A stretch of 20,000 bases of DNA from Chrysochromulina tobinii (GCA_001275005.1 JWZX01003263.1:46080-66079); one strand, 5' to 3'. Shown: positions 80 through 19,196, counted from the stretch's first letter. The notes: a model not told the origin generated them from the sequence alone. Translations and numbers: made by a program.

Positions 80-2821
80 TTGTACAAAGGGCACCCAATT
101 CTTCTCATTGTCCTGTAGTGTAAACGGACCGTCAGGCCCTTCGTCGATCGACAATTCCCACACAGCCTCCTGATGAGGGAGGCAATCCGATGTCATCAGA
201 GGGCATCAGAGGCACTCAGAGCCGCGCCACCTCGGGCGCCATGTACCTGCCTCAGTGTGCCACTCGCTGCATCGCCCGCTAGGCGCAGCAAGCACAGCCG
301 ACGCCGCCCGCGGCAGTCCTCGTGGTTGGCGACGAGATAGAGCGTGCCGCGGTGCACGAGCACACGAGCGTCCTCGTAACCGTCGTACTCGATGACGTGG
401 CGGCGCGGCGCGGCCGGCGCTGGTGCCGGCGGCGCTGGTGTAGGCGGAGGGAAGTCTTCAAAATTGGCCCGAACATTGGCGGCGTCCGCCGCTCGTACGT
501 CGGGGCCGTGCGCGCTGCGGCTCCGGGTTTGATTGGAGCCTCCGCCAACAGCACGGCCCACACGAACGGCTCCAGAGACGCTGCCGCTGCTTGTGGTGGT
601 GTTGCCGCCGCCTTGCCCATGGCGGCCACCGCCTTGCTCGTCGCCCCCATCGGCGCTACGGCACCGTTCAAACGCAGCGACGGAGCGGCAGTTGGTGATG
701 GGCATGGCTGCGCCGAGCAGCAACAGTGCGCGTAGTAACCGCCCACGCGCCAGCCGCCGATGCGCGCGTGTGCGTCGGAGCGCGCAAAGCAGTTGCGCCA
801 CTCCCGCCGCGAAGCATCCGAAGATGAGGGATGAGGACAAGCGAGGTGCACCGGCCGCTAGCCGGCAGATGGCAGGCGAGAGGTCCGACCAGAGGTGCTC
901 TTCACATTCACACGGTGGGAAGGGCGCACTCAAGTTGAGCCACGAGACGAAACCGAGGCGTATCTCTCCAGTGCGCCGCTGCCGCTCCACCGTAAAGTAG
1001 CCTACCGCACTGAAGCCGCCACGCACGGCGCCGACGCCGCTCGCGCCGAGCGCCATCGCCTGGTCGTTGATCCACTGTTCGGTGGCGGGGAGGATCAAGG
1101 GCGTGCCGTCGGGCGCCTCCTCTACGTCAAAGATCTGGAGCTCGTCCTCCGAGATCGCGAGCTCGTCCTCTGAGATCTGGAGCTCGTCCTCTGAGATCGT
1201 GAGCTCGTCCTCCGAGATCGCGAGCTTGGCTCTGCGCCTGCTACTGCTGCTGCTCCTACTGCTGCTGTTGCCGCTGCTCCAACTGCTGCTGCTCCTACTG
1301 CCGCTGCTCCTATTGCTGCTGCCGCTGCTATTGCTGCTATTGCTTCTGCTGCTGCTAGTGCTGCTGATACTTCTCGTGCTCCTGCTGCTGGTGGATGCCC
1401 CGTTGTCCTCACCTTTGTGGGCCGCCAATCCCACGGCCTCAATCTCGGCCTCAATCTCGATCTTGGCCTCAATCTCAGCGGAGGCCATCTCAATCAGTGA
1501 ACGCCAGCGATCCGCCGCCCCATGGCCGCGCGCCTTGCTCTGCGCCTGCTCGATCACGGCGGCCAACTCAATCTCGGCCTCAATCTCGGCCTCAATCGAC
1601 GACAGCGCGGACGTCTCCTCCTTCGCCTGCTCGTCCTCCATGTCCCCATCAAGAGTTTCGACACCCTCGGCGTCCTCGGTGCCTGCCATATAATGGCCAC
1701 TTGGCCGGCGCATTGGGATCCTCATGGCTTCAGCCGCCCCGCCCTTTGCAGCGCCCATCAGCAACGGCCGACTCGGCTGCTCTGATTGCGGTTCCAATTG
1801 CTCTGATTGCGGTTCCAATCGCTCTGATTGCGGCTCCACTTGCTCCCGCTCGCCCGCCAGGATGGAGCCTACTCCGGCGCGTGCAACCGTGCCGCCTTTG
1901 GCCCCGCGAAGCAGCTCCCCGGCCTGCCGAACCTCGGTGACGAAACCCCGCTCCCCTGCTCGACGCTGCGCCGTTGCGGGCGTCTCGAGCTCGGGCACAT
2001 GCCCCTGCGAGAGGGCGGCGCGCCACTCGGGCCAGTCGACTGCTCGTTGCCACGCGCCAGCGGTCGTCGTCGTCCAAATCGAGCGCACCTGCATTCAGAA
2101 GCCATCAACGGTCATCAGAGGCCATCAACGGCAATCAAGGCGTCGTCCAGATCGAGCGCACGTTCGAGAAACGGAAGATGACGACGTAGCGTGCGATGTC
2201 GTCGTCATCATCGGCGGCGCCGAAGTCGTCAGCTGCCCAACCAAATGCGGAGCGTGGCGGCAGCGCTGCGATCGCTGGGTTGAAGGCGAAAAAGGGCCGT
2301 TGTGGCGCAGCTGTCAGGTGTTCGGACAGCGCCTCAGGTGGCAAAGGCTGGGGCAGCTCGATTGTGTGCGGTGGCGGCGGCTCCTTCCCGGTGGAGGCGC
2401 TCCCTGCGGCGTTGTGACGGGTATCAGCGGGCACGAGCGGCACGGTCGGCCGCAGGCTCGAACTCGACGTGACGCAGGCGTGGTAGGAGCCGACGGTGAT
2501 GTCACACGGCATCTGTTCGCACGTGGTTCGATACGACTCGTCGGCCTCCTTTCGACGCTGCGTCGCATACAGCAGCTGCCACACCTTGTAGTGCAGCGCC
2601 AGATCGTTGGGCATGCTGCGTAGCACGCTGCTGTACTCAGAGCGCGAGAGCTCCTCCCTATCTCCAGAGCCAAAGTGCATGGCGGACTCGGCGAGCTCAA
2701 TCTGACGCAAGATGTCGTGCGTTGAGGCAGAACGCCTCGGCCGGTACTGGTAATTGGACGGCGGCCCGAGCCACTCGGCCAACGCGCGGCTGGAGCTCGG
2801 CGTCGCGAGAGAGCTCGCCAT
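1..2821 (-). CDS. Multi-exon protein (3' partial) with five-bladed beta-propeller glycoside hydrolase/glycosyltransferase-like motifs and long low-complexity inserts
   Basis: Exons 2821-2162, 2088-247 and 169-80 join in phase 0 across GT..AG introns (FRFSN|VRSIW; GTLRQ|EAVWEL; PFVQ|intron running off the window). Motifs FNPAI...FRFSN, YEDARV and EKNWVPF resemble GH130/beta-mannosyltransferase-like propellers, by recollection and not by search. Extra unrecognised introns inside 2088-247 are possible. Confidence 0.6.
170..246 (-). other. Decamer-repeat spliceosomal intron (77 nt)
   Basis: CAG|GTACAT donor, CTGATG/CTGAGT/CGGATT decamers, TGCCTCCCTCATCAG acceptor. Splicing joins ORF 196..2094 to ORF 2..196 in frame. 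Confidence 0.75.
1130..1225 (-). repeat. 21-nt coding tandem repeat (xISEDEL x4)
   Basis: GAGATC..GAGCTCGTCCTC units on the + strand; translation ISEDELTISEDELQISEDELAISEDELQI. Confidence 0.85.
1240..1390 (-). repeat. Trinucleotide (AGC/AGT/AAT) low-complexity tract encoding poly-Ser
   Basis: (CTG/CTA)n on the + strand; Ser-rich run in ORF 196..2094. Confidence 0.85.
1779..1845 (-). repeat. 21-nt coding tandem repeat (EPQSExL x3)
   Basis: GCTCTGATTGCGGTTCCAAT[T/C] units on the + strand. Confidence 0.8.
2089..2161 (-). other. Intron (73 nt) whose first 21 nt duplicate the downstream exon start
   Basis: 2141-2161 CGTCGTCCAGATCGAGCGCAC vs 2068-2088 CGTCGTCCAAATCGAGCGCAC (20/21); decamer filler; TGCAG acceptor; both flanking ORFs contain VRSIWTT. 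Confidence 0.9.
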
Positions 2822-2881: not shown

Positions 2882-5800
2882 CTATTTGAGGATCAAATCA
2901 TCGTCCAGCTGCTCGACCGCTTCGAGCCAGGTACCCTGCACCTCATCCCACCCGCTGTAAAAGTCGAGTCGGTCTTCAAAGACATCGAGGAAGAGGGAGA
3001 GGTCTTCCTTCGACACCGCTAGGAGCGTCCGAAGCCCGTCGAAGAGGATAAACTGTGCGGTGACGATGATGGCCAGTGAGAGGCAGCGCTGCTTGACGCC
3101 AGCGTACAGCACCGAGGCCTTAGCTGCCACGTCATCGGACTCAGCACCCGCGAGCACATCGTCCAGCGCTGCGCGCCAGTTGCGTCCAAATCCGCGGGCC
3201 GCACATCGGGTGACGACGGTATCGGCCGGATGGCTGACCAGCGCACCCATGAACCCGGCGACGATCCCGGAGATGAGGGAGACGACGAGTGCGAAGGAGG
3301 GCCGTTCACTCGCCGCGGGCAAGATCGAGAGCAGCGCGTCCTGAGTGCTCGCGTACACGAGGAGTTTCGTCACCTGCATGCAACGAGACTCGCAGTCAAG
3401 TCAAGTCAAGTCAAGTCAAGTCAAGTCACCTGCATGTAACGAGACTCGCAGGCGTTTCAGAGCGGAACTCAACGAGGGGCACTCAGAGGGTGCACTGACT
3501 CAGAGGGGTCGCACAGAGGGGTCGCACAGAGGGGGCGATCTCGGTGCAATCTCAGTTCTCACCCCAAACGGGAGCTCGCGCCCCATGAGCGTGGGTAACC
3601 CGTCCCATGGCCGGAGCACATCTCGCTGTTTATCTCGCTGTGCCGTGGACGAAACCACGCGCGCCGTCGCGGGCGTCGAGGTGACCACGGCAGCGCTGCT
3701 CGCGGCGGCGCGCTGTCGTGAGCTCTCATCTGGCATCGTGAGTGACAGCTTGGTCGACGTCGTCGCGACGCCTGCGCCTTCCGTGGCTGCTCGGGCAGCA
3801 GGAGCGTCACCTCGCATCACGAGGTCGAGAGCTTCCACAAGGTTCTGTGGCGCGTCGGGCGCGCCACTGCCCGTCATGATCTTCACTCGCGCCGTCTCAA
3901 AAGGGGAGGAGCACACGGAGGCCGCCACGGCCTGCAGCAAGCAAGCTGTGAAGAGGATCGGAGTGGCGAGGTCTGCGGGGGCCGCTGGGCCCATGACGAA
4001 CGCCGCCAGCTGCGGAATCGTGCGCCTGAGGAATTCAAACGTCCCAAACGAACCCGCACCTGCCGCGAAGCCCGCAGCAATGGACGCTTCGATGCCCAAA
4101 AAGGGCGACGAAGGGGGGGGCGGTGGTGCAGTCGCGGCAGCGGTGGGCGGGGGCGGGTCCCCGACGCCCGGGACGATGCCCCTAATGTGCTGCTCCGACT
4201 GCGCTGTGCTGTTGAGCGATGGCTGCGTAGGAGTCCCGGCGGGCGCTTTGGCTGTCTTGATCGCTGCCTGGCGACGCGTCTTGATGAGGTCGATGGGCGA
4301 CGTGACTGCACGGGTCGTGGCGGAGCAGAGTCCGCCGGCGATGGCCAGTCGAGCGACCAGCGCGGGGCTGAGCGGAACGTCCTGACGAACCCCACCCGAG
4401 ATGGATGTGGGCAGCGTGGAGACCTCCTGCGAGAGGAGACTCTCACTCTTGCGACCGGCCACTTGGTTTCCGACGAGGTTCCCCCTGCACACCGGCAGGC
4501 GCGCGCACCGCGTCCGAGGCGTTGGTGAGGGCACGGGTCCATTGGTCACGGGTCCAATCTCGGTGCAATCTCGGTGCAATCTCGGTACAATCTCGGGCAC
4601 GGATCCAATGGTAACGGGTCCAACGGTCAGAAGAACAGGGGAGGGCACCGCGGCGCGCGTAAAGCCCGCAATCTCGGTGCCATCTCGGGGCAATCTCCCG
4701 TACAGCCCGAAAGGCAGTCTCGGCGGCAATCTCGACGGCAATCTCGGCGCAATCTCGCGTACAGCCCGAGAGGAGCTTCGAAGACATAGTCAGGGTTGAT
4801 CGACTCGTACAGAAGGGATGGGAAGCGATGGCGAGGCGGTACGCCCACCGGGTACGTTCGGCTAGGCGGCTTGCCAGGGTCGAAGATGGGCGCGCCCTCT
4901 TCCGGCGGCAGGAGCGCGAGGAGCCGGTCGATGACGCCGTCGACGTCACGAGGATTCGAGGGCGGCTTTGGTGGGCGCTGCGGCGGCGAGTCCCTCTCGT
5001 CTTCATAACGGTCTTCTCGGTCACGCAGATCGATGCTACGGGATCGCCACGCCCATGCATCGATGCCCAAATTGGTGCTCGGGACGGCGTTACGAAGCCG
5101 GGAGATGCTCTCCTCGTACGACGGCGCCAGTCCGTCTGTCGCTGCCCGCTGCCGGCCGAGGGCCAGTGTCGCGCGCGGCGGACGTAGCATGAGGATGTCG
5201 GAGGTCGAACGCGCTGAGACCTGATCGCCGTACCGCGCCGCCATCGACTCGAGCGACCAGGGCGTGGAGGCGAATTCCAGTGGCGAAGGGGTGCGAAAGT
5301 TGCTCGATGGCGCCGTGGTGGGCGCCGTCGCCCTCGCGGCCATCGACTTCCGCACGCGCTCGTCACTACGCTCGCGATTGGAGTCACGCGAGGGGGTGCG
5401 CGGGGAGAAGAAGCGAACGTCGAGATCCTGTGAGGACCCATAGCCGGCGCCAAACCGGCTCAGCGGGACGGACCCTACCTCGTACTCCAAGAGCACCTGA
5501 TGAGGAGAGCCATCCGAGGGTCATCAGAGGTGCGCAATCAGCCGCAATCAGGGCTCGTACTCGTCGAGTATGCCGCAATCAGGGCCCTCGGCGCCCGTGA
5601 CGACGCCTGAGATGCAATCAACCACAATCGACTGCAATCAACCGCACTCAGGCGCACCTTGCCCTTGGCGCCCGCGACGACGCCGGTGAGGGCGCGCGGA
5701 GGTGGCGCGACCACAACCTGCACTCGATCCGTGCCCTTATAGCCTGCGCCCGGGTCCGTCAGCACAAACGCGACGACGGAGCCGTCGCGCACGATAGCTC

Positions 5801-8258: not shown

Positions 8259-11200
8259 ATGAAGCGCATCCTCTGTGCGCTCGTCTGTGCGCTCGTGCTC
8301 GCGCTGCTGCAGCTCGGACCGCTGCAGCAGCGTATCTTGCTGGACGCCCGAGCTGCGTCAGATACGCTGCAGCAAGCTAACCTCTGCCGATTAGAGTGCA
8401 CGGTTGGCGGCGGGGCCGAGCCGGGATTCCTCGACGAAGGACCTTTGGTCGTGCCGCTGCCGCCTGGCGCGACGCTGCATCTGGCTGGCCGTCCCGGCCG
8501 AGGATGCGCCGTGGCGCCCAAGAGCATGCTGCAGCTGCCCCATGGCATCGGTCGGCTCCCTCGCATCCATTCCGCCTTTGGTGATCTTCGTCTGGTGCCG
8601 CATGGAGCACTGCTGCGATCGCCGCTGCCAACTGCAGATCGCCGCAACGACAGCCGATGCGTCGAGCCGTTTAACGAGCCTTCCGCTCACGAGCATGCAT
8701 CCATGGCCTCGACACGATGGCTCGCGTCGCGCTTGCACGCGCGCTGCATGCTCCCGCCAGGTACCTTGTTGGCCGACCTCTCCCCTGATTGCCTCTGATT
8801 GCCTCTGATGAACTCTGATGAACTCTGATTGCCTCCCACATCAGGTACCTTGTTGGCCGACCTCTCCTCTGATTGCCTCTGATTGCCTCTGATGACCTCT
8901 GATGACCTCTGATTGCCTCCCTCATCTTTCCCTCATCAGGTACCTTGTTGGCCATGTCGTCGGCCGCCGCCGCCGATGGCGCGCCACCGAGCTCAGAGGC
9001 CCATCACACGTCGTCGCGTGCCAGCGCAACGGACGAGGGATCTTGCGTGTCGGCGCCGCTGCGCCAAGCCTGGCTCCGTCCGTCTGCCTCTTTACAGCTT
9101 CGCTCTTCACAGCTCCATCCGTCTCCCTCGGCGCACGCGGGTCGCCAGTGGGTCGCTAGCGGCCACGACCCTCTAGGGATGACACGTACCGCGGCGGCAG
9201 CGGATGAGGAGGCAGCGAGCAACGCGGCGCTCAATGCATCGCTGGGTGCGGATGTAGGCGGCGCGGCGGCGCTCGAGGTGCCCACGACGGCGCTCGTGGT
9301 CTCCGTGCTCCTGCAACTGCCCACGACGGCGCTGCCAGACGAAACCACCCTCGCCACGCTCCGCCACCTCATCGCCCAGCTGAGTTGGTCCGCGAGCGCC
9401 GTCCCGGGCACGAGCGCCGTCCCGGGCACGAGCGCCGTACCGGGCGCGAGCGCCGTACCGGGCGCGAGCGCTTTACGGGCGCACCTCGAGGCAAGCGCTG
9501 GGCAGCCTAGCGCTGGGCAGCCTAGCGGCCTTGCTGCACGACCAAAAGGCGCGCGTGCCGCCGACGTGGCAGCTGCTGCTGCTCAGCGCCCGCCCGCTCT
9601 GTTCCGAACCTCCAGAGCTCGTCGATCTCCTCCGGCAGCTGCCCGACGGTGGTGCACTTGGCACCGGCGCGGGAGCGGGAGCCGAGCGCCGTACCGGGCG
9701 CGAGCGCCGTCACGGTCGCGACTGGCGACCTGGACGAGAGCGCCGTCTCGGGCGCGGATCAGAGCGTCGTCTCGGGCGCGAGCGAGGCGGCGGGCAAGCG
9801 CGCGCCGGTGCTGCTAGGCGCTCGGCCAATGCCGGCGCAGGACACGATGGCGCCCGTCACGGCGCCCCTTGAGGCTCCCCCCACGCCGCTGAGTGCGGAG
9901 GTGCGGCGCGTTTGGGACCTCTCCCCTGATTGCCTCTGATTGCCTCTGATGACCTCTGATTGCCTCCCTCATCAGGTGCGGCGCGTTTGGGACCTGCTGG
10001 CTCCTGCAACAGCGACACGCGTGCTCGCGGACTCGAGATCGCATCTGGCCGCTGGGGCACTGGCCGCGCGACTCTCGCTCCTTCACAAGAGCCCTCAGTG
10101 CGACGTGCTGTTCACACCGGCGGGCGCCACGGTCGCTGTGGACGGCGTCATGGCTGCTGGTGAGTTGCATGCAAGTGCTCACCACGGCGTCATGGCTGCT
10201 GGTGGCGGTGGTGCACGCGTCGGCGGCGCTGGTGGCGCCAAAGGCTCTGGCGAAACGCCCAAGGCGGTGCCCGACGCCACCGCCGCCACCAGCACTGCCT
10301 CCGCCGCCGCCGCCGCCACCGCCGCCGTGACTGGGGAGTCTATCGGTGGCAATCTCGGTGGCAATCTCGGTGGCAATCTCGATGGCAATCTCGGTGGCAA
10401 TCCCGGGGATGATGCCTCGTTGTCATCCAGTGCAGCGTCCTCCACCTCCTTTGATCCCACCTCCTCCTCCTCCTCCTCCTCCACCGCCGCCGCCGCAACG
10501 GAGATCGCCGCCGAGATGGCCGCCGAGATGGCCACGTACAGATCCGCCGTCGAGCCACTTCGCGCGTGGCACTTCTTCGCGCTCGCGCCAAATATGGCAA
10601 CCGACCACTCGACAGCCTACAGCCACGCCCCGCCGGCGCCGGCGGCCGCGGCGACGATGCCCCTCCCGTGGCTTCAACGAGCTGCGGTCGAGTCCGCCAG
10701 CGTGCCGCGTGGTGCCTGGCCCGTGTGGCGACCGTTGAGGCTGCCTGCCGCATGCCGCTCAGCCGGAGGGCCCTCGGCGGAAGCGCTCGGTACGGCGCTC
10801 GAGGCGGCGGCGGCCTTGGACGTCCAGCACGGCGCTTCCACAGATGCCGAGGGTGCGCCCAGCACGGCGCACAGAGCGTGGCAAGCGGACTACGCGGCCG
10901 CGGCGGTCGAGTTGGACTACTGGCTACGCTGCTTGCATGCGGGCGCCTCCATCTGCCATGTTGTGCCGGCCATCGACCCAAATATGGAGGGCGAGAGCGA
11001 TGAGCATGCAAGTGCTCACCACGGCGCGGCGCTCGGCCCAAATATGGAGGGCGAGAGCGATGAGCATGCACATGAGTATGCACCGGCCGCGCTGCACGGC
11101 GCGGCGCTCGGCGAGCTGCTGGCCCGGCATCGCCGCCCGTCGGCACTTCGCATCTTGGTGGTCAACGAGCAGGTGCCTTTGCATGCATGTTGATTAGCTT

Positions 11201-13161
11201 CGCATCTTGATGGTCAACGAGCAGGTGCCTTTGCATGCATGTTGATTAGCTTCGCATCTTGATGGTCAACGAGCAGAGGTGCCCGGGGCCGCGGAGGGAG
11301 GTCATCAAGCTGCATGCAAGTGCTCACCACGGCGCCCCTCACCCCCTTCATCAGGTGCCCGGGGTCACGGAGGGAGGCGATCTGCGGGCCGCGCAGCTCG
11401 TCAGCGAGATCGCGGCCGAGGGGCACGCGGTCACGTACGTGTCCCTGACGCCGGCGCGTCGGCCGGAGGATATCTCGGCGTTGCGAGATGCGGGCTGGCG
11501 CGCGTTCGCGCCCTCGTGTGCGGACTCTCGCGCCGCGTGGTGCGACGAGTGCGGCCAGGTGCAGAGTCGCCCGTTTGTGAGTTGCATGCAGGTGCTCACC
11601 ACGGCGTCCCACCCCCCTCATCAGGTGCAGAGTCGCCAGTTTGTGAGTTGCCGCGTGCAGTCAGCCTCGCGGCTGGCGCACCGCGTGGCCGTGATCGATG
11701 ACGACGCTCATCTGGACGCTCTGAGCAGCGCTCGGCACGACGCTCTGGGCAGCGCTTCCAGTGCGGTGGCAGCCGAGGCAGACGTGGTGCTTCTCATCGC
11801 ATGGTTCTGGCGCTGCGGCGCTCACCACGGCGCGGCGGAGCTGGCGATGCAGCGGCTGAGTCAGCAGCCGCTGGTGCGGCATTCGCGCGTCGTCGTCGTG
11901 AGCGACGACGTTCACTGGGTGCGTGACGCGTCCGCCCCTTTCTGTAACGACTCTGCGGCCATCCGGGTGCGCGAGCTCTGATGACCTCTGATGACCTCTG
12001 ATGACCTCTGATGACCTCTGATTGCATGCCTCATCAGGTGCGCGAGCTCGCTCTCTACTCGAGCCTCTGATGGCCTCTGATGACCTCTGATGACCTCTGA
12101 TTGCATGCCTCATCAGGTGCGCGAGCTCGCTCTCTACTCGAGCGCCGCTCTCACCCTGACTATCACCGATGAGGACCGCGCAAAGCTGAGCGGCCAGCGG
12201 CCCGGACTCCCTCTCCGCACACTCCCGTTTGCGGCGACGACACCAACGGCAACCGCGCTCGCCGCTGGCTGGGCACAACGGCGCGGCGTCCTCTTTGTCG
12301 GATCGTACCACCGGAGTGGCAACACGCGCGCACTCCGGTGGTTGCTGCGCCGCGTGTGGCCAAAGGTTCGTCAGGCGGTCCCGTCGGCGAGATTGCATCT
12401 CGTCGGCGCTCACGAGTGGCGCACGGAGGTGTGCGAGCTCTGATGACCTCTGATGATCCCTGATGACCTCTGATGACCTCGGATGGCCTCTGATGGCCTC
12501 TGATGAGTATCTGATGAGGACCGCGCGGAGGTGCGCGAGCTCACTGATGGCCATTGATGGCCACTGACTACCTCTGATTGAAATCAATTGCCACCGAGGA
12601 CCATTGATGGCCTCTGATGACCGCTGGTTGGCTCGGATGACCATTGATCGGCTTGGATGACCATTGATTGGCTTGGATGACCGCTGTGATTGGCTTGGAT
12701 GACCGCTGGTTGGCTTGGATGACTGATGGGCTTGGATGACCGTTGATTCGCTCTGAGTGCAGGTGCGCGAGTCACGTGCCGAGGGCGTCGAGTCGCTCGG
12801 TCAAGTGGAGGATTTGAGTCCAGCGATGCTCGAGGCTCGTGTGCTCGCGGCACCGGTGCTTGTGCATTCAGGCCTCGCGACCGAATGCATGCTAGCCTTG
12901 GGCCATGCGGTGCCGCTCGTGACGACGCCGGTGGGCGCTCGCGGGCTACTGACGGCACGCTCGCCCAGCGCGATCGCGATCGCGCGCACAAGCGACGAGT
13001 TTGCGGCGGCGCTAGTCTCGCTGCTGCTTGACCGAAGCGCGTGGGACGCGCAGCGCGCGCGCAGCGTTCACCATGCGGCTGCATATCTCGGCGCGCCCAG
13101 GCTGCATCGGCAGCTTCGCCGCGCCCTCAGCGAGATGCGAGGCGAGTTGGGCTTGGAGTGA
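8259..13161 (+). CDS. Membrane-anchored glycosyltransferase with a C-terminal GT-B / GT4 (Glyco_trans_1_4-like) domain, multi-exon
   Basis: N-terminal anchor MKRILCALVCALVLALLQL. Introns 8761-8939, 9901-9975, 11173-11354, 11559-11624, 11967-12116 and 12429-12762 all splice in frame. GT4-like motifs: LRILVVNEQ|VPGVTEGGDLR..GHAVTY, SDDVHWVR, VLFVGSYHRSGNTRALRWLLRRVWP, LGQVEDL, PLVTTPVGARGL, DEFAAAL. The reading frame between ~9490 and 9690 is unresolved. Confidence 0.8.
8761..8939 (+). mobile_element. Two stacked introner-like units (8761-8844, 8845-8939), each starting with a duplicate of the exon start
   Basis: CAGGTACCTTGTTGGCC occurs at 8758, 8842 and 8937; each unit is CTGAT[T/G].. decamers followed by CATCAG. 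Confidence 0.8.
9387..9470 (+). repeat. 18-nt coding tandem repeat (SAVPG[T/A])
   Basis: GCGAGCGCCGT[C/A]CCGGGC units, about 4.5 copies; related copies at ~9683-9785. Confidence 0.8.
9901..9975 (+). mobile_element. Introner-like intron (75 nt) with a perfect 20-nt exon duplication
   Basis: GTGCGGCGCGTTTGGGACCT at 9901-9920 and 9976-9995; decamer filler; TGCCTCCCTCATCAG end. Confidence 0.88.
10345..10403 (+). repeat. 12-nt tandem repeat GGTGGCAATCTC (GGNL x ~5), in frame in an exon
   Basis: Seen directly; same AATCTCGG core as the intronic repeats at 4555-4760. Confidence 0.8.
11173..11354 (+). other. Composite intron (182 nt): 52-nt tandem repeats plus an introner-like unit at 11279-11354
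   Basis: 52-nt period at 11146/11198/11250; 11279-11301 matches exon start 11355-11377 (21/23); filler TGCATGCAAGTGCTCACCACGGCG; ends CTTCATCAG. Confidence 0.8.
11559..11624 (+). mobile_element. Introner-like intron (66 nt, in frame, stop-free) with a 27-nt exon duplication
   Basis: 11559-11585 vs 11625-11651 (26/27); filler ATGCAGGTGCTCACCACGGCG; ends CCCCTCATCAG. Confidence 0.8.
11967..12116 (+). mobile_element. Two stacked introner-like units (11967-12037, 12038-12116) with 12-nt and 27-nt exon duplications
   Basis: GTGCGCGAGCTC at 11967, 12038 and 12117; 12038-12064 = 12117-12143; both units are (CTGATGACCT)n + GATTGCATGCCTCATCAG. Confidence 0.88.
12429..12762 (+). other. Long degenerate decamer-repeat intron (334 nt)
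   Basis: GAG|GTGTGCGAG donor resembles the exon start GTGCGCGAG; an internal second copy lies at ~12531; GAGTGCAG acceptor; joins EWRTE|VRESRAEG. Confidence 0.8.
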
Positions 13162-13940
13162 CCAAGGGCAGCTAGAGAACGCCTATACTATTTAGGGACC
13201 CAACAATAAGGTGGGTCGCGATTAAGGATTTAAGGTTGCGTGACTGTTGCGATCTGTGGGCGCATCTCGTCTGGCGAGCGTTTACTCTATTTATACAGCT
13301 CGGTCCTCGGCATGGTCCTCGGACGTGGGTTGTGCGTCGTGGCGTTTTTCGTGTCTGAAGGATCGATATCTCTGCGTTGCTTACTGCGTTGCTTACCGTA
13401 CGCGACCGCAGCGCGGCCGCGGGCTTTTTCTTTCGTGCAGGTCATCTCGGCGAGCGTGACGCGGCGCCGACTGGCCTTGAGCACGTGAAAAGGCGTCCTT
13501 GTAGCACACGGTCGATGTGCGTGACAAAGCCAGCCCTCAGGTGCGTCACCGAGTGCTGCACGCACCTGCTTGGCGATGCGAGTTTGCAGCCAGCCTCCAG
13601 CGCTGTTGTGCGCAATTGCGCGCCATCTTGCTTCTTGGTCAGATGGACCGGGCGGGCGGGCTGGTACGCGTGCAGGCGGTGCGCAGACTACGCCGGCACC
13701 CGCGGGCGGCCGTCGTGCCGTGGGCCGTGGCTTAGGGCGCCAGCCGCCGTCACAGCGCGAGTCCGGGCTTGGCGAACGGCTCGGACGTCGGAGGGTGACT
13801 CGGAGGGCGCGGGTGTCTGGAAGAAGGCCAGCATGGCGAGCAATTTTCTATCAGGTTCGATAGCTTCCACATTAGGAAATAACGTCACTGAACTCAAAGC
13901 ATCGATCCACACATGTTCACAGTGCTCTCACAATCATTTT

Positions 13941-16076
13941 CTACAATACCAACACAAATCCACTCCGGCCCTTCACCGCATCTCGCACCGCTTTTTTTCC
14001 TGCTTTTCCTATGTCGTTGTACTCGAGGTCGAGCTTGGTCAGGACCGCGTTGACCTTCAGAGCCTTCGCAAACGCCTTGGCTCCCTTGTCCCCGATGTTG
14101 TCGCATCCGACCATGGGGTTGTCGTTGCCGTTGCGTCCGAGGGAGAGGGTGGTCACCACCGCGTTGACCTTCAGCGCCTCCGCGATCGCTATGGCACCAT
14201 CATCGCTGATAGAGTTGACCTGCAGGTTCACCGAGGTCAACACCGCGTTGACCTTGAGCGCCTCCGCAATCGCCTTGGCACCCTCATCCCCGATCTTGTT
14301 GCTGATCAGGCCCACGGTGGTCAGGACAGCGTTGACCTTCAGCACCTCCGAGATCGCGATGGCTCCCTCGTCCCCGATGTAGTTCTGGTACAGGAGCAGG
14401 GTGGTCACCACCGCGTTGACCTTCAGCGCCTCCGCGATCGCCTTGGCACCCTCCGCACGGATCTTGTTCTCGTCCAGGCGCAGGGTGGTCAAGACCGCGT
14501 TGACCTTCAGAGCCTCTGCGATCGCCTTGGCACCCTCTGGACCGATGTTGTTGTGAATCAAGTCTAGGGTGGTCAGGACCGCGTTGACCTTAAGTGCCTC
14601 TGCTATCGCGATGGCTCCCTTGTCCCCGATGCCGATCGCCTTGGCACCCTCAACCACGATGGAGTTGTACCCGAGGTTGAGGGTGGTCAAGACCGCGTTG
14701 ACCTTCAGCGCCTCCGCGATTGCGATGGCACCCTCATCCCCGATGGAGTTGTACCCGAGGTAGAGGGAGGTCACCACCGCGTTGACCTTAAGCGCTTCCG
14801 CGATCGTGATTGCTCCCTCGTCCCCAAACTGGTTGTGTCCGAGGACGAGGGTGGCCCCCCCCGCGTTGACCTTGAGCGCCTCGCCGAGTGACGATGCGCC
14901 CTCCGGACCGATGTTGTTTCTGGAGAGGTCGAGCGTCCTCAAGGCCACAAAGCGGGGCAGCACCTCGCACAGCTCGACGACGTCGGCGGCGCCCCACTCG
15001 AGCCCTTGGAACTCGAGCTCGCCAACGTTGGTGACCTTGCCGAAGAAGGTCGCGTACAGGTCCGCGACCTTGCTCACGTCGGACGAGTTGGTGAAGCGCT
15101 TCTCCGTCTGCAGCAGGCGCCGGACCGTTTCCGGCGATGGCGGCGGCGGCCGACGCCGCGCGCACACGCGCGCGAGTATGTAGTCGGCTTCATCCCACGG
15201 CATCCCGGGCCCGTAGGCGCACGCCATCGCCAGCACCGTACGCTTGGCGAGGTCGAGGCGCAGGAAGCCGGGCTTGATGGCGGCGCTGATGGCGGCCTCG
15301 ACGTAGCACCAGCCCGAGTCCTCATACGTCTCCGCGAGGGGCGGCTCGCTCGCCCGCATCCGCGCCGCAAACCCCTCGGGCAGCTCGCTCTGCATCCACA
15401 CGACGGTGCGCGCGTGGCCATACCACACATTGGAGTTCTGCAGGCCCTTGGGGAAGAGCTTTGCCTCGGCGTCGGTGCGCGGCGGCTGGTGCAGGCTCGC
15501 ATAATCCCAGAACAGCGCGAACTCGGGGAGGCCGAGCCCGTGCTTCCGGAACGCCGCGGTGAGCTGCGACTTAAGTTTCCCCCCCCTCGGGTCGAGGTAG
15601 AGCTTGGCGACCGACGCCACGATGCCGAGGTGGAAGCCGTCGGGGTCGGGGTGCTCCTTTGTGAGCCACCGGTACGACAGCGCGACGAAGAGCACGCCAA
15701 AGTCGTCGCCCAGCGCCAGCGCGACCCTCCGCAGCTCGCCCGCCGACCAAAAGGCCTCGGGCGGAAGGTCCTGCCGGCGCGAGAGGCGGCCGCCGCGCTT
15801 GTGCAGGCCGACGAGCCAGGTGCCCTTCACCGCCGCGATCGCGCCGCTCTCCACCGATGCGAGCAGCGTCTCAACGTCAAAGTAGGGGTTCGGTGCGGCG
15901 GCGGCGGCGCTCGCGACGCTCGTCTGCGACTGGGCCGTGGGCGGCCCGCCTTGTGTTACTTTTTTCGGAGTTCGACCTCCTCGGAGGACTCGGCGGAGGA
16001 CTCGTCGGAGCACAGCGCGAATCGTGGTGGCCTCTGTCGAGGTGGAGGAGGAGCCTTTCGAGTTGGAGGCGCCCAT
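13941..16076 (-). CDS. HET-like domain + ribonuclease-inhibitor-type LRR protein (NLRC3-like repeats), 711 aa, intronless
   Basis: MGASNSK N-terminus (myristoylation-like); motifs FVALSYRW..EHPDP, LFWDYASLHQ, YEDSGWCYVE; ten 28-aa LKVNA..LxLxxNxIGxEGA repeats. Confidence 0.88.
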   Translation of the reverse strand: MGASNSKGSSSTSTEATTIRAVLRRVLRRVLRGGRTPKKVTQGGPPTAQSQTSVASAAAAAPNPYFDVETLLASVESGAIAAVKGTWLVGLHKRGGRLSRRQDLPPEAFWSAGELRRVALALGDDFGVLFVALSYRWLTKEHPDPDGFHLGIVASVAKLYLDPRGGKLKSQLTAAFRKHGLGLPEFALFWDYASLHQPPRTDAEAKLFPKGLQNSNVWYGHARTVVWMQSELPEGFAARMRASEPPLAETYEDSGWCYVEAAISAAIKPGFLRLDLAKRTVLAMACAYGPGMPWDEADYILARVCARRRPPPPSPETVRRLLQTEKRFTNSSDVSKVADLYATFFGKVTNVGELEFQGLEWGAADVVELCEVLPRFVALRTLDLSRNNIGPEGASSLGEALKVNAGGATLVLGHNQFGDEGAITIAEALKVNAVVTSLYLGYNSIGDEGAIAIAEALKVNAVLTTLNLGYNSIVVEGAKAIGIGDKGAIAIAEALKVNAVLTTLDLIHNNIGPEGAKAIAEALKVNAVLTTLRLDENKIRAEGAKAIAEALKVNAVVTTLLLYQNYIGDEGAIAISEVLKVNAVLTTVGLISNKIGDEGAKAIAEALKVNAVLTSVNLQVNSISDDGAIAIAEALKVNAVVTTLSLGRNGNDNPMVGCDNIGDKGAKAFAKALKVNAVLTKLDLEYNDIGKAGKKAVRDAVKGRSGFVLVL
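14020..14930 (-). repeat. 84-nt coding tandem array (LRR units)
   Basis: GCGTTGACCTT recurs on the + strand with an ~84-nt period (longer at two units with insertions). Confidence 0.9.
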
Positions 16077-16243
16077 GTTGATTTGCCTTTGATGAACTTT
16101 CGTACTAAGTTGAACCTCGATTAATTAACGAAACGTTGGCTTTCTGAACAAAATCTAGCGTTCTAGCTTCTAGGTCCGGGTGAATCCACGACGTCATCTT
16201 CGACGCATGGAACCCCAGTATACCCGCAGACTTCAATCTTCTA

Positions 16244-17305
16244 CTATCTACTTCTATCCATGCGATGCAATCCCATCAGCAGTTCGCCTCGAGACATCGC
16301 TACGCAACAGCCGCCTATCCGAACTGCTCCGACGCCGTCTGCCAGCCGCTCCGCCTCTGCCCGCAGCTCGCTCGGCCGCCCCATCTCCACCCCCTGAACG
16401 ACACGTGCCCTCACGAGCGCGGCGGAGCAGCCTGGTGGCGGCGCCAGGCTGGCGAGCACGCCTGCGAGGCAAGCGTTCGCCGCGCCCGTGCCGGCGTCTT
16501 CGGTGCCGTTCGCGCGGTGCATCCGCGCCCGAATCTGGTGCACCACGCCGCCGGCGCCCTCGCCTTTCTCAGTGCCTGTGTGCGTGTAGAGCAGCACCTT
16601 AGGCGGCACCGCGGCGAGAGCACACAGCTCCTCAAACGCGGCAGGCGCGCCGCGCGAGCGCGCGAGCGCATCGAGGCTCGCGCATTCGGCCACGATAAAG
16701 GGCAGGCCCGTGGTGGCCACGAGCGGCGGATGGTTGGACACGACCAGCTCCGAAGGCTCGAGACTGACGGCCGCGGCAACGTCCTTGACGGGCAGCGATG
16801 GCACGGGCAGAGAAAACGGCTCGGGCGCTGTCAGCATCGCACCCGTGGGCTGGCCGGCGGCATCGTGCAGGATGTTGAGGAGCACGAGGCCGGCCTTCTC
16901 CTCAAACCGCACGGTGTGGCCCACCGGCCGACCCATGAAGTTGCCGCGCCAGGCGAGCGCAGTAGCCGTGCCCACGTTCGGATGGCCTGCAAAGGGCATC
17001 TCATAGGTCGGCGAGAAGATTCGAACGTGCGCGGTGTTTGCCTCGTCGCTTGGCGGCAGCACGAAGGTGGTCTCCGAGTAGCCGAATTCGGCCGCGATGC
17101 TCTGCATCTGTGCAGCGGTCAGCTGCTTCTCCCGATCTCCGGGCCGTCTTTCGCCGTCAGGCGGGCGCTCGCAGTCTTCGCCCCCATCCCCTAGCAAGCG
17201 CGAGGCCGAGCGGGCCTCAAGCTGGGTCAGCGTTGACCAACGTCGTGCTCCACACGCACTATACCACAGTCGTTGGGCGAATCCCCAACAACTCTCCCTC
17301 CACAC
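16244..17305 (-). CDS. PhzF/PhzC-family (diaminopimelate-epimerase-like fold) protein; 5' end uncertain or truncated
   Basis: QMQSIAAEFGYSETTFV, VRIFSPTYEMPFAGHPNVGTA, EDAGTGAAN, QGVEMGRPS, VRIGG. Homology starts near 17120, and the canonical N-terminal D.F....GNP motif is not seen. Confidence 0.8.
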   Translation of the reverse strand: MWRESCWGFAQRLWYSACGARRWSTLTQLEARSASRLLGDGGEDCERPPDGERRPGDREKQLTAAQMQSIAAEFGYSETTFVLPPSDEANTAHVRIFSPTYEMPFAGHPNVGTATALAWRGNFMGRPVGHTVRFEEKAGLVLLNILHDAAGQPTGAMLTAPEPFSLPVPSLPVKDVAAAVSLEPSELVVSNHPPLVATTGLPFIVAECASLDALARSRGAPAAFEELCALAAVPPKVLLYTHTGTEKGEGAGGVVHQIRARMHRANGTEDAGTGAANACLAGVLASLAPPPGCSAALVRARVVQGVEMGRPSELRAEAERLADGVGAVRIGGCCVAMSRGELLMGLHRMDRSR

Positions 17306-17378
17306 GCACTATACCACAGTCGTTGGGCGAATCCCCAACAACTCTCCCTCCACACGCACTATACCACAGTCGTTGGGC
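17248..17378. repeat. Perfect 50-nt tandem repeat, 2.6 copies
   Basis: CTCCACACGCACTATACCACAGTCGTTGGGC at 17248, 17298 and 17348, separated by identical GAATCCCCAACAACTCTCC. Confidence 0.92.
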
Positions 17379-17761: not shown

Positions 17762-17941
17762 TCGGATTGATTTCGGTGCATCACCGCAACGTTAATTTCA
17801 TGGACACTTTCGTATCAGCCCAGGGGGGGTTAACCTGGCACACGTTGTGTCGTTTGAGTTGTGTCTACCGTACATCACATGAGATCAAAGTGTTCAACTG
17901 ATCGTGTCAACAATTGCCCCGATTAAATTACACCTGTGTTT

Positions 17942-19078
17942 TCAATGCATGTAATAGATGAAGCGCCAGAACGGATGGTGGCCGGCGGGAGGGACGGGCG
18001 GCGCAACTCCCGGTGGTGCCGGTAGTGGGTTCTGCAGCTTGAGCCCGAACAGCAGCAAGTCGTGGAAGGGGCTCGCCCCCGGCTGAGGCCCGGCGTGCGG
18101 CAAGGCGTATGGATGGTTGGGCGGCACAAAGATGCGCATGTAGACGTGCGAGTCGAAGCCGTTCTCCTCCGTAAAGTGGCCTGGGTCGTATTCGACCGCG
18201 TGCCGCAGGTGGGCGAGCGTGGGCTGGAGGCCGGCGGCCGGGGCGCCCACGAGATGCTGGAGCAGCCCGAGCACGAGGCCGGGGGCACGGAAGGCGGGCG
18301 TGCCCAGAGGGAACCCCGACGCCCCGTCGAGCGGGCACCACGCATTGGACGCGTAGCAGTCGTGAACATCCTCGCCCATGTTCACGTGCCCGACGTCGCT
18401 CCACACAAGCGTCACAGGGTCTCGCTGCTCGACGACGCAGCGGTGCTGCCACGGGCGCGGTAGCACCGGCCCCACCAGGCCCGCGAGGAGGGCTGGGGGC
18501 GCGTGGATGGCATCGTGTTGCGGCTGCCAGTTTATACAGCCATGCCACCTCGGCGTCGGCGGCAGGGGGGGTGCGTTGGGGGCGGCCACGCGCACGCGCC
18601 AGACGAGTCGCGTCTGTCGGCCCGCGACCGCCGCGACCGGTGGCGGCACGCCCGGCGGCCCGACCGGGATGCCGGCCGCGATGGCCGCGATGGCCGCCGG
18701 CGTCGGGTAGTGGCAGAAGCGTAAGACGAGCGTGGCCACGTGCTGCCAACCCGGCGCGGCTCCAAGGGGCGGCGGGATCTTAATCGGGTGCGCGCCGAAG
18801 GGCACGCCGGTCGGCGGCATCGTGCCCGTCGTGTTCCAGGCGGCGCCGCCGAAGAGGTCCAGAGCGGGGTTTACAACGGCGAGGGGGTTTCCAGGCGCGG
18901 CGAGCGGCGGGGGATTGCCCGGCGTATAGTAGCCGTCCGCTGCGAGCTGGAGGGCGGGCGCGACGTTGGGAAAGTTGCGTCTATACATGCCCCAGATCCC
19001 GTGCCCCGTGAGCCGGGGGTTGGGGATGCCCGCCGGGTTGCCCGGCTGACCGACGTTGTTGAACGGGGCCGCCGCCAT
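17942..19078 (-). CDS. Hypothetical Pro/Gly/Ala-rich protein, 378 aa, intronless
   Basis: ATG-to-stop ORF with GC-rich third positions, bounded by AT-rich spacers on both sides; no family recognised. Confidence 0.65.
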   Translation of the reverse strand: MAAAPFNNVGQPGNPAGIPNPRLTGHGIWGMYRRNFPNVAPALQLAADGYYTPGNPPPLAAPGNPLAVVNPALDLFGGAAWNTTGTMPPTGVPFGAHPIKIPPPLGAAPGWQHVATLVLRFCHYPTPAAIAAIAAGIPVGPPGVPPPVAAVAGRQTRLVWRVRVAAPNAPPLPPTPRWHGCINWQPQHDAIHAPPALLAGLVGPVLPRPWQHRCVVEQRDPVTLVWSDVGHVNMGEDVHDCYASNAWCPLDGASGFPLGTPAFRAPGLVLGLLQHLVGAPAAGLQPTLAHLRHAVEYDPGHFTEENGFDSHVYMRIFVPPNHPYALPHAGPQPGASPFHDLLLFGLKLQNPLPAPPGVAPPVPPAGHHPFWRFIYYMH

Positions 19079-19196
19079 ATGGGATCGGTTTTGCCATTTT
19101 TGTTAATTGTGGTTTCCATTTATATACTTGATTAGTGGACGGGAACCGAGTGCGGCTGGCTCGGCGGAAGTAATTGCACTCTGCCCCCTGGCCAGC
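19079..19196. promoter_or_regulatory. Putative bidirectional promoter with an AT-rich/TATA-like core
   Basis: 118-bp spacer between divergent ATGs; TTTATATA at 19119-19126 in otherwise very GC-rich DNA. Confidence 0.45.

What the first reader, a model, noticed from the sequence alone, without database searches (positions are those of the whole stretch)
8758..12762. Candidate new intron-generating system: [exon duplicate starting GT] + [tandem-repeat filler] + CCTCATCAG
Seen: at least eight intron units start with a copy of the first bases of the next exon. They are 2089-2161 (21 nt), 8761 and 8845 (14 nt), 9901 (20 nt), 11279 (23 nt), 11559 (27 nt), 11967 (12 nt) and 12038 (27 nt). The duplicate supplies the GT donor and the insert supplies the AG acceptor, so splicing restores the original reading frame exactly. 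There are no terminal inverted repeats, duplication length varies, filler copy number varies, and the 3' end is nearly constant. Established: the characterised algal introners (Micromonas, Aureococcus) are DNA-transposon derivatives with short, family-specific target duplications. Variable long duplications with a fixed 3' end are instead typical of target-primed reverse transcription or staggered-break repair. Inference: a nuclease plus a reiterative or templated polymerase (LINE/Penelope/telomerase-like RT, or Pol-theta-like repair) writes splice-ready repeats at ^GT sites. The 0-2 mismatches in the duplicates imply recent activity. I cannot verify whether this has already been described for this lineage.
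Basis: partly seen in the sequence, partly recalled or inferred. Interest (0 to 1): 0.92.

Follow-up and report, generated by a model that had tools for sequence, protein, structure and literature searches.

The report
New introns copied from neighbouring introns
In the alga Chrysochromulina tobinii many introns are a short copy of the gene's own sequence wrapped around repeat filler that often matches a nearby intron, and some are present in certain wild relatives but absent in others, so new introns likely arise without a transposon, by error-prone DNA copying that borrows splice signals from neighbouring introns.

Summary
Observation confirmed: all eight duplications exist with the stated lengths. 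The gene is a C. tobinii glycosyltransferase. An orthologue aligns gap-free across all six junctions. Genome-scale: 78 of 210 filler-preceded acceptors carry such a duplicate, against 14 of 540 controls. Relatives show presence/absence at 11967 and at 9808, where the window itself is the empty site.

Of 136 [duplicate]-filler-[duplicate] units only 54 have that form; 30 take both splice sites from the duplicate and 11 have the opposite polarity. No filler is 90% identical to one in another locus (0 of 95). Fillers instead resemble same-strand neighbouring introns within about 1-4 kb. The polymorphic 11967 intron matches the 12429 intron at 41 of 44 bases.

Best reading (0.55): local duplication with filler templated from a neighbouring intron, then selection for spliceable products. 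No enzyme was identified and RNA junctions were not shown. The largest introner survey lists zero families for this species. The scan saw this footprint once before on another piece of this genome (e1-2577349).

The parts
8259..13161 (+). Host gene: GT4-type glycosyltransferase (Pfam PF13692) of Chrysochromulina tobinii (partial public model KOO22660.1), six introns; one 1-nt frame break near 9545 relative to relatives, probably a sequence error
8761..8939 (+). Intron of two serial units (8761-8844, 8845-8939), each starting with a 14-nt copy of 8940-8953; filler 8775-8811 is identical over 37 nt to 9916-9952 of the next intron
9808..9828 (+). Empty site: single copy of a 21-nt GT-starting stretch; 8 proteins from relatives carry here a 24-codon duplicate-plus-filler unit ending like the 9901 intron
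9901..9975 (+). Intron: 20-nt copy of 9976-9995, 10-mer filler, CATCAG acceptor; present in 17 of 17 relatives' proteins covering it
10142..10204 (+). In-frame exonic duplicate-filler-duplicate (21-nt repeat, 42-nt insertion) without acceptor; present in 4, absent in 3 relatives' proteins
10976..11070 (+). In-frame exonic 60-nt duplication carrying the same filler family; present in 3, absent in 4 relatives' proteins
11173..11354 (+). Composite intron: 52-nt tandem units holding a 27-nt copy of the upstream exon end (ends in AG), then unit 11279-11354 with a 23-nt copy of 11355-11377
11559..11624 (+). Intron, 66 nt, in frame and stop-free: 27-nt copy of 11625-11651, filler, CATCAG; present in 16, absent in 1 relative's protein
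11967..12116 (+). Polymorphic intron of two serial units (duplicates of 12 and 27 nt); absent in 6, present in 27 relatives' proteins; first 44 nt match 12429-12472 at 41 positions
12429..12762 (+). Older composite intron, present in 10 of 10 relatives' proteins including those lacking 11967 (likely donor); holds a 14-nt copy (12513-12526) of exon 12168-12181 and a 9-nt copy of the next exon start
2089..2161 (-). Unit of the same form in another gene: 21-nt duplicate (1 mismatch), 10-mer filler, TGCAG acceptor; splicing not tested
3369..3452 (-). 28-nt duplicate spanning a 3' splice site with a 5-mer repeat filler (serial unit in the mitochondrial-carrier gene)
5497..5657 (-). Candidate intron holding an internal copy of the upstream exon end between filler blocks (duplication across a 5' splice site)

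Best explanation
These are young spliceosomal introns made of an 11-50-nt duplication of the gene's own sequence around a 10-mer repeat filler, likely created when a broken or slipped DNA end copies part of a neighbouring intron and then rejoins slightly upstream, with selection likely keeping only products that can be spliced or stay in frame. Shown: the [D]-filler-[D] anatomy, three splice-site arrangements, filler resemblance to same-strand neighbours that decays with distance, presence/absence among relatives, and no such introns in the orthologue. Inferred steps: (1) a staggered break or replication slip frees a 3' end at the end of D; (2) it anneals by short homology to a nearby intron and copies branch-point-like repeats, with or without the CATCAG end; (3) it re-anneals at the start of D, so D is copied again; (4) purifying selection leaves GT/GC..AG or 3n products; (5) later slippage changes repeat number and adds serial units. 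Each new intron would then be a donor for the next. The enzyme (Pol-theta-like end joining is the textbook candidate) was not tested.
For: Spliceable without changing the protein: 95 of 136 units, null mean 31.7, maximum 44 of 500 shuffles.

Three arrangements (54 / 30 / 11), not one fixed end.

No master copy: 0 of 95 fillers are 90% or more identical to a filler in another locus, median 76%.

Local donors: longest shared stretch with a neighbour 15.1 vs 11.8 nt null, for the 71 of 95 units with a neighbour. Same-strand block pairs average 9.8 nt at 150-500 nt and 8.4 nt beyond 4 kb, against 8.3 across loci; opposite-strand pairs are not raised. 8 of 9 hand-picked cases plus the window share a 20-22-mer found in no other locus. 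Donor candidates lie upstream in 17 cases and downstream in 13.

Case in the window: 11967 matches 12429 at 41 of 44 nt, including 11 of 12 nt of exon-derived homology. The 12429 intron is present in all 6 proteins that lack 11967.

Microhomology in class B: left 3.37 vs 1.29 null (19 of 30 testable), right 3.30 vs 1.36 (23 of 30). A 14-nt exon piece from 345 nt away is embedded in intron 12429.

High background of plain duplications: 88 without filler, 67 of them 3n.

Filler is CTRAY-rich (5.6 vs 0.56 per 100 nt) and AG-poor.
Against: Left-junction microhomology in class A is not above null (1.55 vs 1.33; 29 of 54 testable), and the class-A right-junction excess is partly circular.

Only 30 of 95 units have a local match of 18 nt or more; 23 of 71 fall below their null median. 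The donor of the 3' part of 11967 was not found locally.

Neighbour similarity could come from later gene conversion. Pairs are not independent, so p-values are inflated.

Non-spliceable units are not enriched for 3n (10 of 41 vs 37 of 95). About 16 of 20 inspected by eye lie inside larger introns.

No RNA joint at these junctions among the 15 of 75 joints displayed, and several RNA-run contigs keep intron sequence.

One 20-nt end is very common across loci, as a master element would also give; the loci were chosen by that pattern.
Confidence: 0.55

Rival explanations
1. Same outcome but RNA-templated: a reverse transcriptase (retroelement RT, telomerase or Pol theta) primes at a nick, uses the gene's own unspliced pre-mRNA as template and jumps between intron and target.
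For: Similarity is raised only for same-strand neighbours and fades at gene scale. 222 of 224 touching blocks are co-oriented. Class A looks like priming at CAG|GT with variable 5' extent.
Against: Antisense filler carries 6.2 YAG per 100 nt against 0.45 in sense, so selection alone can explain the polarity. Opposite-strand pairs at short range are few (13-30 per bin). Plain duplications without filler are as common as those with filler (88 vs 95). No RT was identified.
Confidence: 0.2
2. One reading: a non-autonomous TPRT-type or Replitron-like mobile element with a fixed CATCAG end and variable target duplications.
For: Variable 11-50-nt duplications. 40 of 54 class-A units end in CATCAG, and 44 of 54 have G before the donor. 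Replitron-1 makes variable TSDs with one fixed end, and one Replitron locus is reported in C. tobinii (PMC10288648, passages and section 9 part 1).
Against: 41 of 95 spliceable units lack the carried acceptor. There is no end-to-end family identity and no nested truncation series. Private variants are shared only with neighbours. Inserts are about 55 nt of repeats, with no terminal direct repeats seen.
Confidence: 0.12
3. No net gain: old introns are rebuilt by tandem duplications across their splice sites, homogenised by gene conversion, and empty sites are precise losses between the direct repeats.
For: Serial units at existing junctions are common. Direct repeats allow exact excision. Sites 11559 and 11967 show filled/empty and empty/filled combinations.
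Against: The orthologue cluster P0001/P0003/P0004/P0007 reads as one open frame across all six sites, on contigs up to 9.5 kb. A second outgroup, P0038, is continuous at the four 3' sites. At 9808 the window, its public model and the outgroup are all empty while 8 proteins carry the unit.
Confidence: 0.1
4. Assembly artefact of short repeats.
For: Serial near-identical units can be mis-assembled; one locus (L105) looks chimeric; the single empty 11559 call could be a k-mer collapse.
Against: 12 DNA runs hold 85-90% of the region's words. Independent assemblies encode the same duplicate-plus-filler with their own substitutions. Copies differ by mismatches.
Confidence: 0.02

Closest known systems
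Intron gain by tandem genomic duplication of an AGGT-containing exon segment (reviewed in PMC3443670, passages)
   Same: Class B (30 units) takes both splice sites from the duplicated segment and restores the frame exactly.
   Different: Duplicates here (11-50 nt) are too short alone; a borrowed repeat filler supplies length and branch-point-like motifs, and in class A also the acceptor.
Intron gain by staggered double-strand-break repair in Daphnia pulex (PMC4202315, passages)
   Same: Direct repeats at intron ends, repeated later events inside young introns, polymorphism in populations.
   Different: Daphnia repeats are 4-12 bp and the inserts mostly have no known source; here repeats are about 23 nt and the insert is one repeat family traceable to nearby introns.
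Tandem duplications with locally templated insertions from staggered breaks, TMEJ/SD-MMEJ (PMC7407515, PMC8355091, passages)
   Same: Short duplication, microhomology, filler copied from nearby DNA, sometimes from several places.
   Different: Not described in those passages as an intron-generating process; the enzymes were not tested in this alga.
Introners (PMC9860276, PMC12130899, bioRxiv 2020.10.14.339549); nearest listed: Emiliania huxleyi fam24/fam11, 5 copies, about 70 nt, '10bp terminal direct repeats', co-opt 5' carry 3'
   Same: Many recent introns of related sequence; one splice site co-opted from a duplication.
   Different: Introners have family-wide end-to-end similarity and, where described, fixed 3-9-bp TSDs. 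The marine Chrysochromulina introner of Fig. 2C has a 4-bp TSD and opposite polarity. C. tobinii is listed with 0 families; the 2022 pipeline requires similarity at both ends and drops low-complexity families.
Replitron-1 of Chlamydomonas (PMC10288648)
   Same: Variable-length TSDs, one precise end, flanking donor sequence carried along.
   Different: 0.9-3.6-kb elements with 6-bp terminal direct repeats and an HUH transposase; none of this is seen in the inserts.

Membership tests
Introner (TE-derived intron family) | Sequence similarity between copies reaching both splice boundaries | tested here: not met
   0 of 95 fillers are 90% or more identical to any in another locus; 5' ends are locus-specific duplicates
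Introner (TE-derived intron family) | Fixed family-specific TSD length and/or TIRs | tested here: not met
   Duplicates span 11-50 nt; no shared terminal repeats in the 186 units printed in large part
Introner (TE-derived intron family) | Recent gain with empty orthologous sites | tested here: met
   11967 empty in 6 of 33 proteins; 9808 empty in the window
Introner (TE-derived intron family) | Autonomous partner element | not testable with these tools
   No genome held
Non-LTR/Penelope TPRT insertion | Variable-length TSD | tested here: met
Non-LTR/Penelope TPRT insertion | Fixed 3' end with nested 5' truncations of one master | tested here: not met
   54 of 136 units carry the acceptor; 51 distinct last 40-mers among 52
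Non-LTR/Penelope TPRT insertion | RT-encoding element with the same 3' end | not testable with these tools
   No genome held
Replitron | Short terminal direct repeats, fixed left end 3' of RG, HUH transposase | tested here: inconclusive
   32 of 54 class-A donors follow RG, but no terminal repeats were seen and the transposase could not be tested
Tandem-duplication introns | Duplicated exon segment supplies both AG and GT/GC | tested here: met
   30 units; not met by the 54 class-A units
Break-repair templated insertion (TMEJ/SD-MMEJ) | Junction microhomology | tested here: inconclusive
   Above null in class B and overall; not at the class-A left junction
Break-repair templated insertion (TMEJ/SD-MMEJ) | Insert templated from nearby DNA | tested here: met
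   clear for a minority (30 of 95)
Break-repair templated insertion (TMEJ/SD-MMEJ) | Dependence on Pol theta or another repair polymerase | not testable with these tools
   Needs genetics; the literature search showed nothing on haptophytes among the 12 listed
U2 spliceosomal intron | GT/GC..AG ends, removal restores the homologous protein | tested here: met
   Gap-free alignment to P0001 at 6 of 6 junctions; KOO22660.1 uses 3 of them
U2 spliceosomal intron | Junction seen in RNA | tested here: inconclusive
   Not among the 15 of 75 joints shown from environmental RNA contigs

The most novel reading that the evidence does not exclude
A self-seeding, transposon-free intron factory: the host's own repair or reverse-transcribing machinery copies splice signals from one intron into nearby exon positions of the same gene, so introns beget introns in cis. 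It would be active today, account for a large share (possibly thousands) of this alga's introns, and be invisible to introner pipelines because every copy has a private 5' end and low complexity.
Probability: 0.4. Interest if true: 0.9.

Novelty: new variant of a known kind. Interest (0 to 1): 0.74.

Why it matters
The sources of new introns are a long-standing question, and the latest survey concludes that ongoing gain is mainly due to transposons (PMC12130899, abstract passage). Duplication and break-repair routes rest on modest numbers of cases (table in PMC3443670).

Here about a third of sampled repeat-type acceptors (78 of 210) still carry the footprint. Filled and empty alleles segregate among relatives, and a candidate donor can be pointed to 462 nt away. 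The organism is cultured and sequenced, so population genomes, RNA-seq and mutation-accumulation lines can test the mechanism directly. It also shows a class of intron gain that current introner screens exclude by design.

Tried and rejected
No whole genome or record handles were available, so no RT, HUH or template-RNA search was possible. The pattern and protein scans of viral and prokaryotic collections found nothing.

RNA contigs from four environmental runs gave no displayed joint at the predicted junctions. They are patchy and partly unspliced, so I take this as no evidence either way. No narrower read-level view of 11100-13200 was obtained, which leaves splicing unshown.

Overlapping loci from different assemblies (L002/L004, L037/L082) showed only repeat-number changes, no empty sites.

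Non-AG acceptors were considered for the 41 units without a GT/GC..AG register and rejected: about 16 of 20 inspected lie inside larger introns with a normal downstream acceptor. A predicted 3n excess among those units was not found.

The 25 opposite-orientation blocks came largely from two seeds being reverse complements; redone. A telomere-repeat origin of the filler was set aside: the units do not resemble TTAGGG (recalled motif).

Two papers were not held.
Full report
IDENTITY. The window is nuclear DNA of the haptophyte Chrysochromulina tobinii. 182 residues from exons 11355-11558 and 11625-11966 occur verbatim in KOO22660.1. The gene at 8259-13161 encodes a protein with a C-terminal Glyco_trans_1_4 domain. 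No whole genome was held.

OBSERVATION. Removing 8761-8939, 9901-9975, 11173-11354, 11559-11624, 11967-12116 and 12429-12762 gives a protein that aligns without gaps at all six junctions to a 56%-identical orthologue, P0001. One 1-nt frame break near 9545 remains; relatives read through it. The public model uses three of these junctions and stops inside the 11967 intron. Splicing was not seen in RNA: none of the 15 of 75 displayed joints matched, and some RNA-run contigs retain intron sequence.

GENOME SCALE. A scan for the 20-nt intron end returned 129 loci from 4 of 64 parts of the collection, 689 kb after removing redundancy. These loci were chosen by that pattern, which inflates the CATCAG class: 26 of 54 class-A units end in it. 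78 of 210 filler-preceded acceptors carry a duplicate of the next exon start, against 14 of 540 controls.

ANATOMY. A search not tied to the acceptor found 186 [D]-filler-[D] units. I dropped 50 (15 serial, 12 with filler inside D, 4 antisense artefacts, 19 with mis-set D), leaving 136; one unit is counted twice (L001/L105). Class A (donor from D start, acceptor from filler) has 54. Class B (AG|G[TC] inside D) has 30. Class C (acceptor from D end) has 11. 41 have no register, and about 16 of 20 inspected lie across the 5' splice site of a larger intron. 95 of 136 can be spliced out exactly, against a null mean of 31.7. D is 11-50 nt, peaking at 20-29. D and filler lengths are anticorrelated (rho -0.49, 85 units under 120 nt), as expected if total intron length is constrained. 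83 of 136 duplicates are exact. The filler is 10-mer units built on CTGAT, ten times richer in CTRAY than flanking exon and poor in AG; its reverse complement is full of YAG. Plain duplications without filler are also frequent: 88, of which 67 are 3n.

NO MASTER ELEMENT, LOCAL DONORS. No filler is 90% identical to one in another locus (0 of 95). Class-A ends diverge quickly upstream of the acceptor. For the 71 of 95 units with a neighbour block, the longest shared stretch is 15.1 nt against 11.8 in length-matched nulls; 38 lie above and 23 below their null median. After dropping 62 pairs with homologous flanks, same-strand blocks share 9.8, 9.4, 8.8, 9.1 and 8.4 nt with rising distance, against 8.3 across loci. 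Opposite-strand pairs are not raised but are few at short range; pairs are not independent. 30 of 95 units have a local match of 18 nt or more, up to 56 nt, 17 upstream and 13 downstream. Eight of nine hand-picked cases, and the window's 8761/9901 pair, share a 20-22-mer found in no other locus. Junction microhomology exceeds the null in class B at both ends but not at the class-A left junction.

RECENT AND POLYMORPHIC. Open-frame calls on relatives' contigs read into retained introns and so report their state. Counts are proteins, not independent haplotypes. Site 11967 is empty in 6 of 33; these six share linked changes and still read into other introns of the gene. One filled allele is a shorter in-frame version. 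Site 11559 is empty in 1 of 17, possibly a collapse artefact. Sites 9901 (17 of 17) and 12429 (10 of 10) are always filled. At 9808 the window is empty while 8 proteins carry a 24-codon class-A unit ending like the 9901 intron 93 nt downstream; 3 are empty by pattern and 4 more by eye. The in-frame inserts at 10142 and 10976 also segregate. The orthologue cluster is one open frame on contigs up to 9.5 kb, two members with long upstream extensions, which I infer to be intronless genomic DNA. The first 44 nt of the polymorphic 11967 intron match the start of the 12429 intron at 41 positions, the first 12 being exon-derived. This is the clearest candidate donor-recipient pair, though the source of its last 20 nt was not found locally. 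Empty alleles could also be exact losses between the repeats.

MECHANISM. Shown: anatomy, classes, local similarity, polymorphism. Inferred: a freed 3' end switches by short homology into a nearby intron, copies filler, and returns upstream, duplicating D. Selection then keeps spliceable or in-frame products, and slippage edits the arrays. Staggered breaks are known to give short duplications and locally templated insertions (PMC8355091, PMC7407515; passages). I give this 0.55, an RNA-templated version 0.2, a mobile element 0.12, turnover of old introns 0.1 and artefact 0.02.

COMPARISON. It works like tandem-duplication and break-repair intron gain (PMC3443670, PMC4202315; passages) combined with intron-to-intron copying. 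It fails the introner tests of both-end similarity and fixed TSD. Gozashti 2022 (PMC9860276; passages, supplement rows) shows a marine Chrysochromulina introner with a 4-bp TSD and opposite polarity. Gozashti 2025 (PMC12130899; passages and supplement rows of files 3, 7, 8; files 13-14 not searched) lists C. tobinii with 0 families, and a 5-copy Emiliania family with 10-bp terminal direct repeats that may be the same phenomenon. Dinoflagellate classes have fixed 3-8-nt TSDs (bioRxiv 2020.10.14.339549, parts 1-2 of 4; supplements closed). Replitron-1 shares variable TSDs only (PMC10288648). Direct repeats near splice sites in general are reported in PMC11782384 (abstract only). The C. tobin genome paper's passages on introns and repeats do not mention it (PMC4580454). 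That Emiliania introns are rich in 10-11-bp repeats is recalled; the paper was not held.

NOVELTY. Ten literature searches showed no description of this system in their listings; subscription papers are not covered. The scan noted the same footprint once on another piece of this genome and read it as a mobile family (e1-2577349). The three splice-site arrangements, local donors and empty sites argue for a different mechanism. Verdict: a new variant of known intron-gain routes, unusually abundant and testable; interest 0.74.

Noticed in passing
window 9540-9550: One extra base relative to relatives' proteins breaks the frame of the glycosyltransferase gene; probably a sequencing error that also distorted the public gene model, which starts late and stops inside the 11967 intron.
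   Followed up: partly
window 3540-3560, 4551-4757, 10343-10406: A second repeat family of 11-12-mers (CAATCTCGG type) fills introns of minus-strand genes and also occurs in frame in an exon.
   Followed up: no
window 3394-3428; L002/L004: 5-mer arrays (AGTCA type) act as another filler; RNA-run contigs pile up there.
   Followed up: no
window 13944-16124 (-): Intron-free leucine-rich-repeat gene with 84-nt repeat units (LRR_6), with many look-alikes in RNA runs.
   Followed up: partly
window 16247-17308 (-): PhzC/PhzF-family gene with a 50-nt x2.6 exact tandem duplication near its 5' end (17248-17378).
   Followed up: partly
window 3503-4789 (-): Mitochondrial carrier domain gene with several repeat-filled introns.
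   Followed up: partly
window 17945-19102 (-): 386-codon open frame with no Pfam match, next to AT-rich stretches around 17780-17960.
   Followed up: no
L105 178-401: Looks like a chimeric contig joined at a palindromic TGCATGCA inside filler; such repeats probably fragment assemblies of this genome.
   Followed up: no
loci: 55 of 399 CATCAG ends are followed by GC and 12 by GA, some with duplicates, hinting at frequent GC and possibly GA donors.
   Followed up: no
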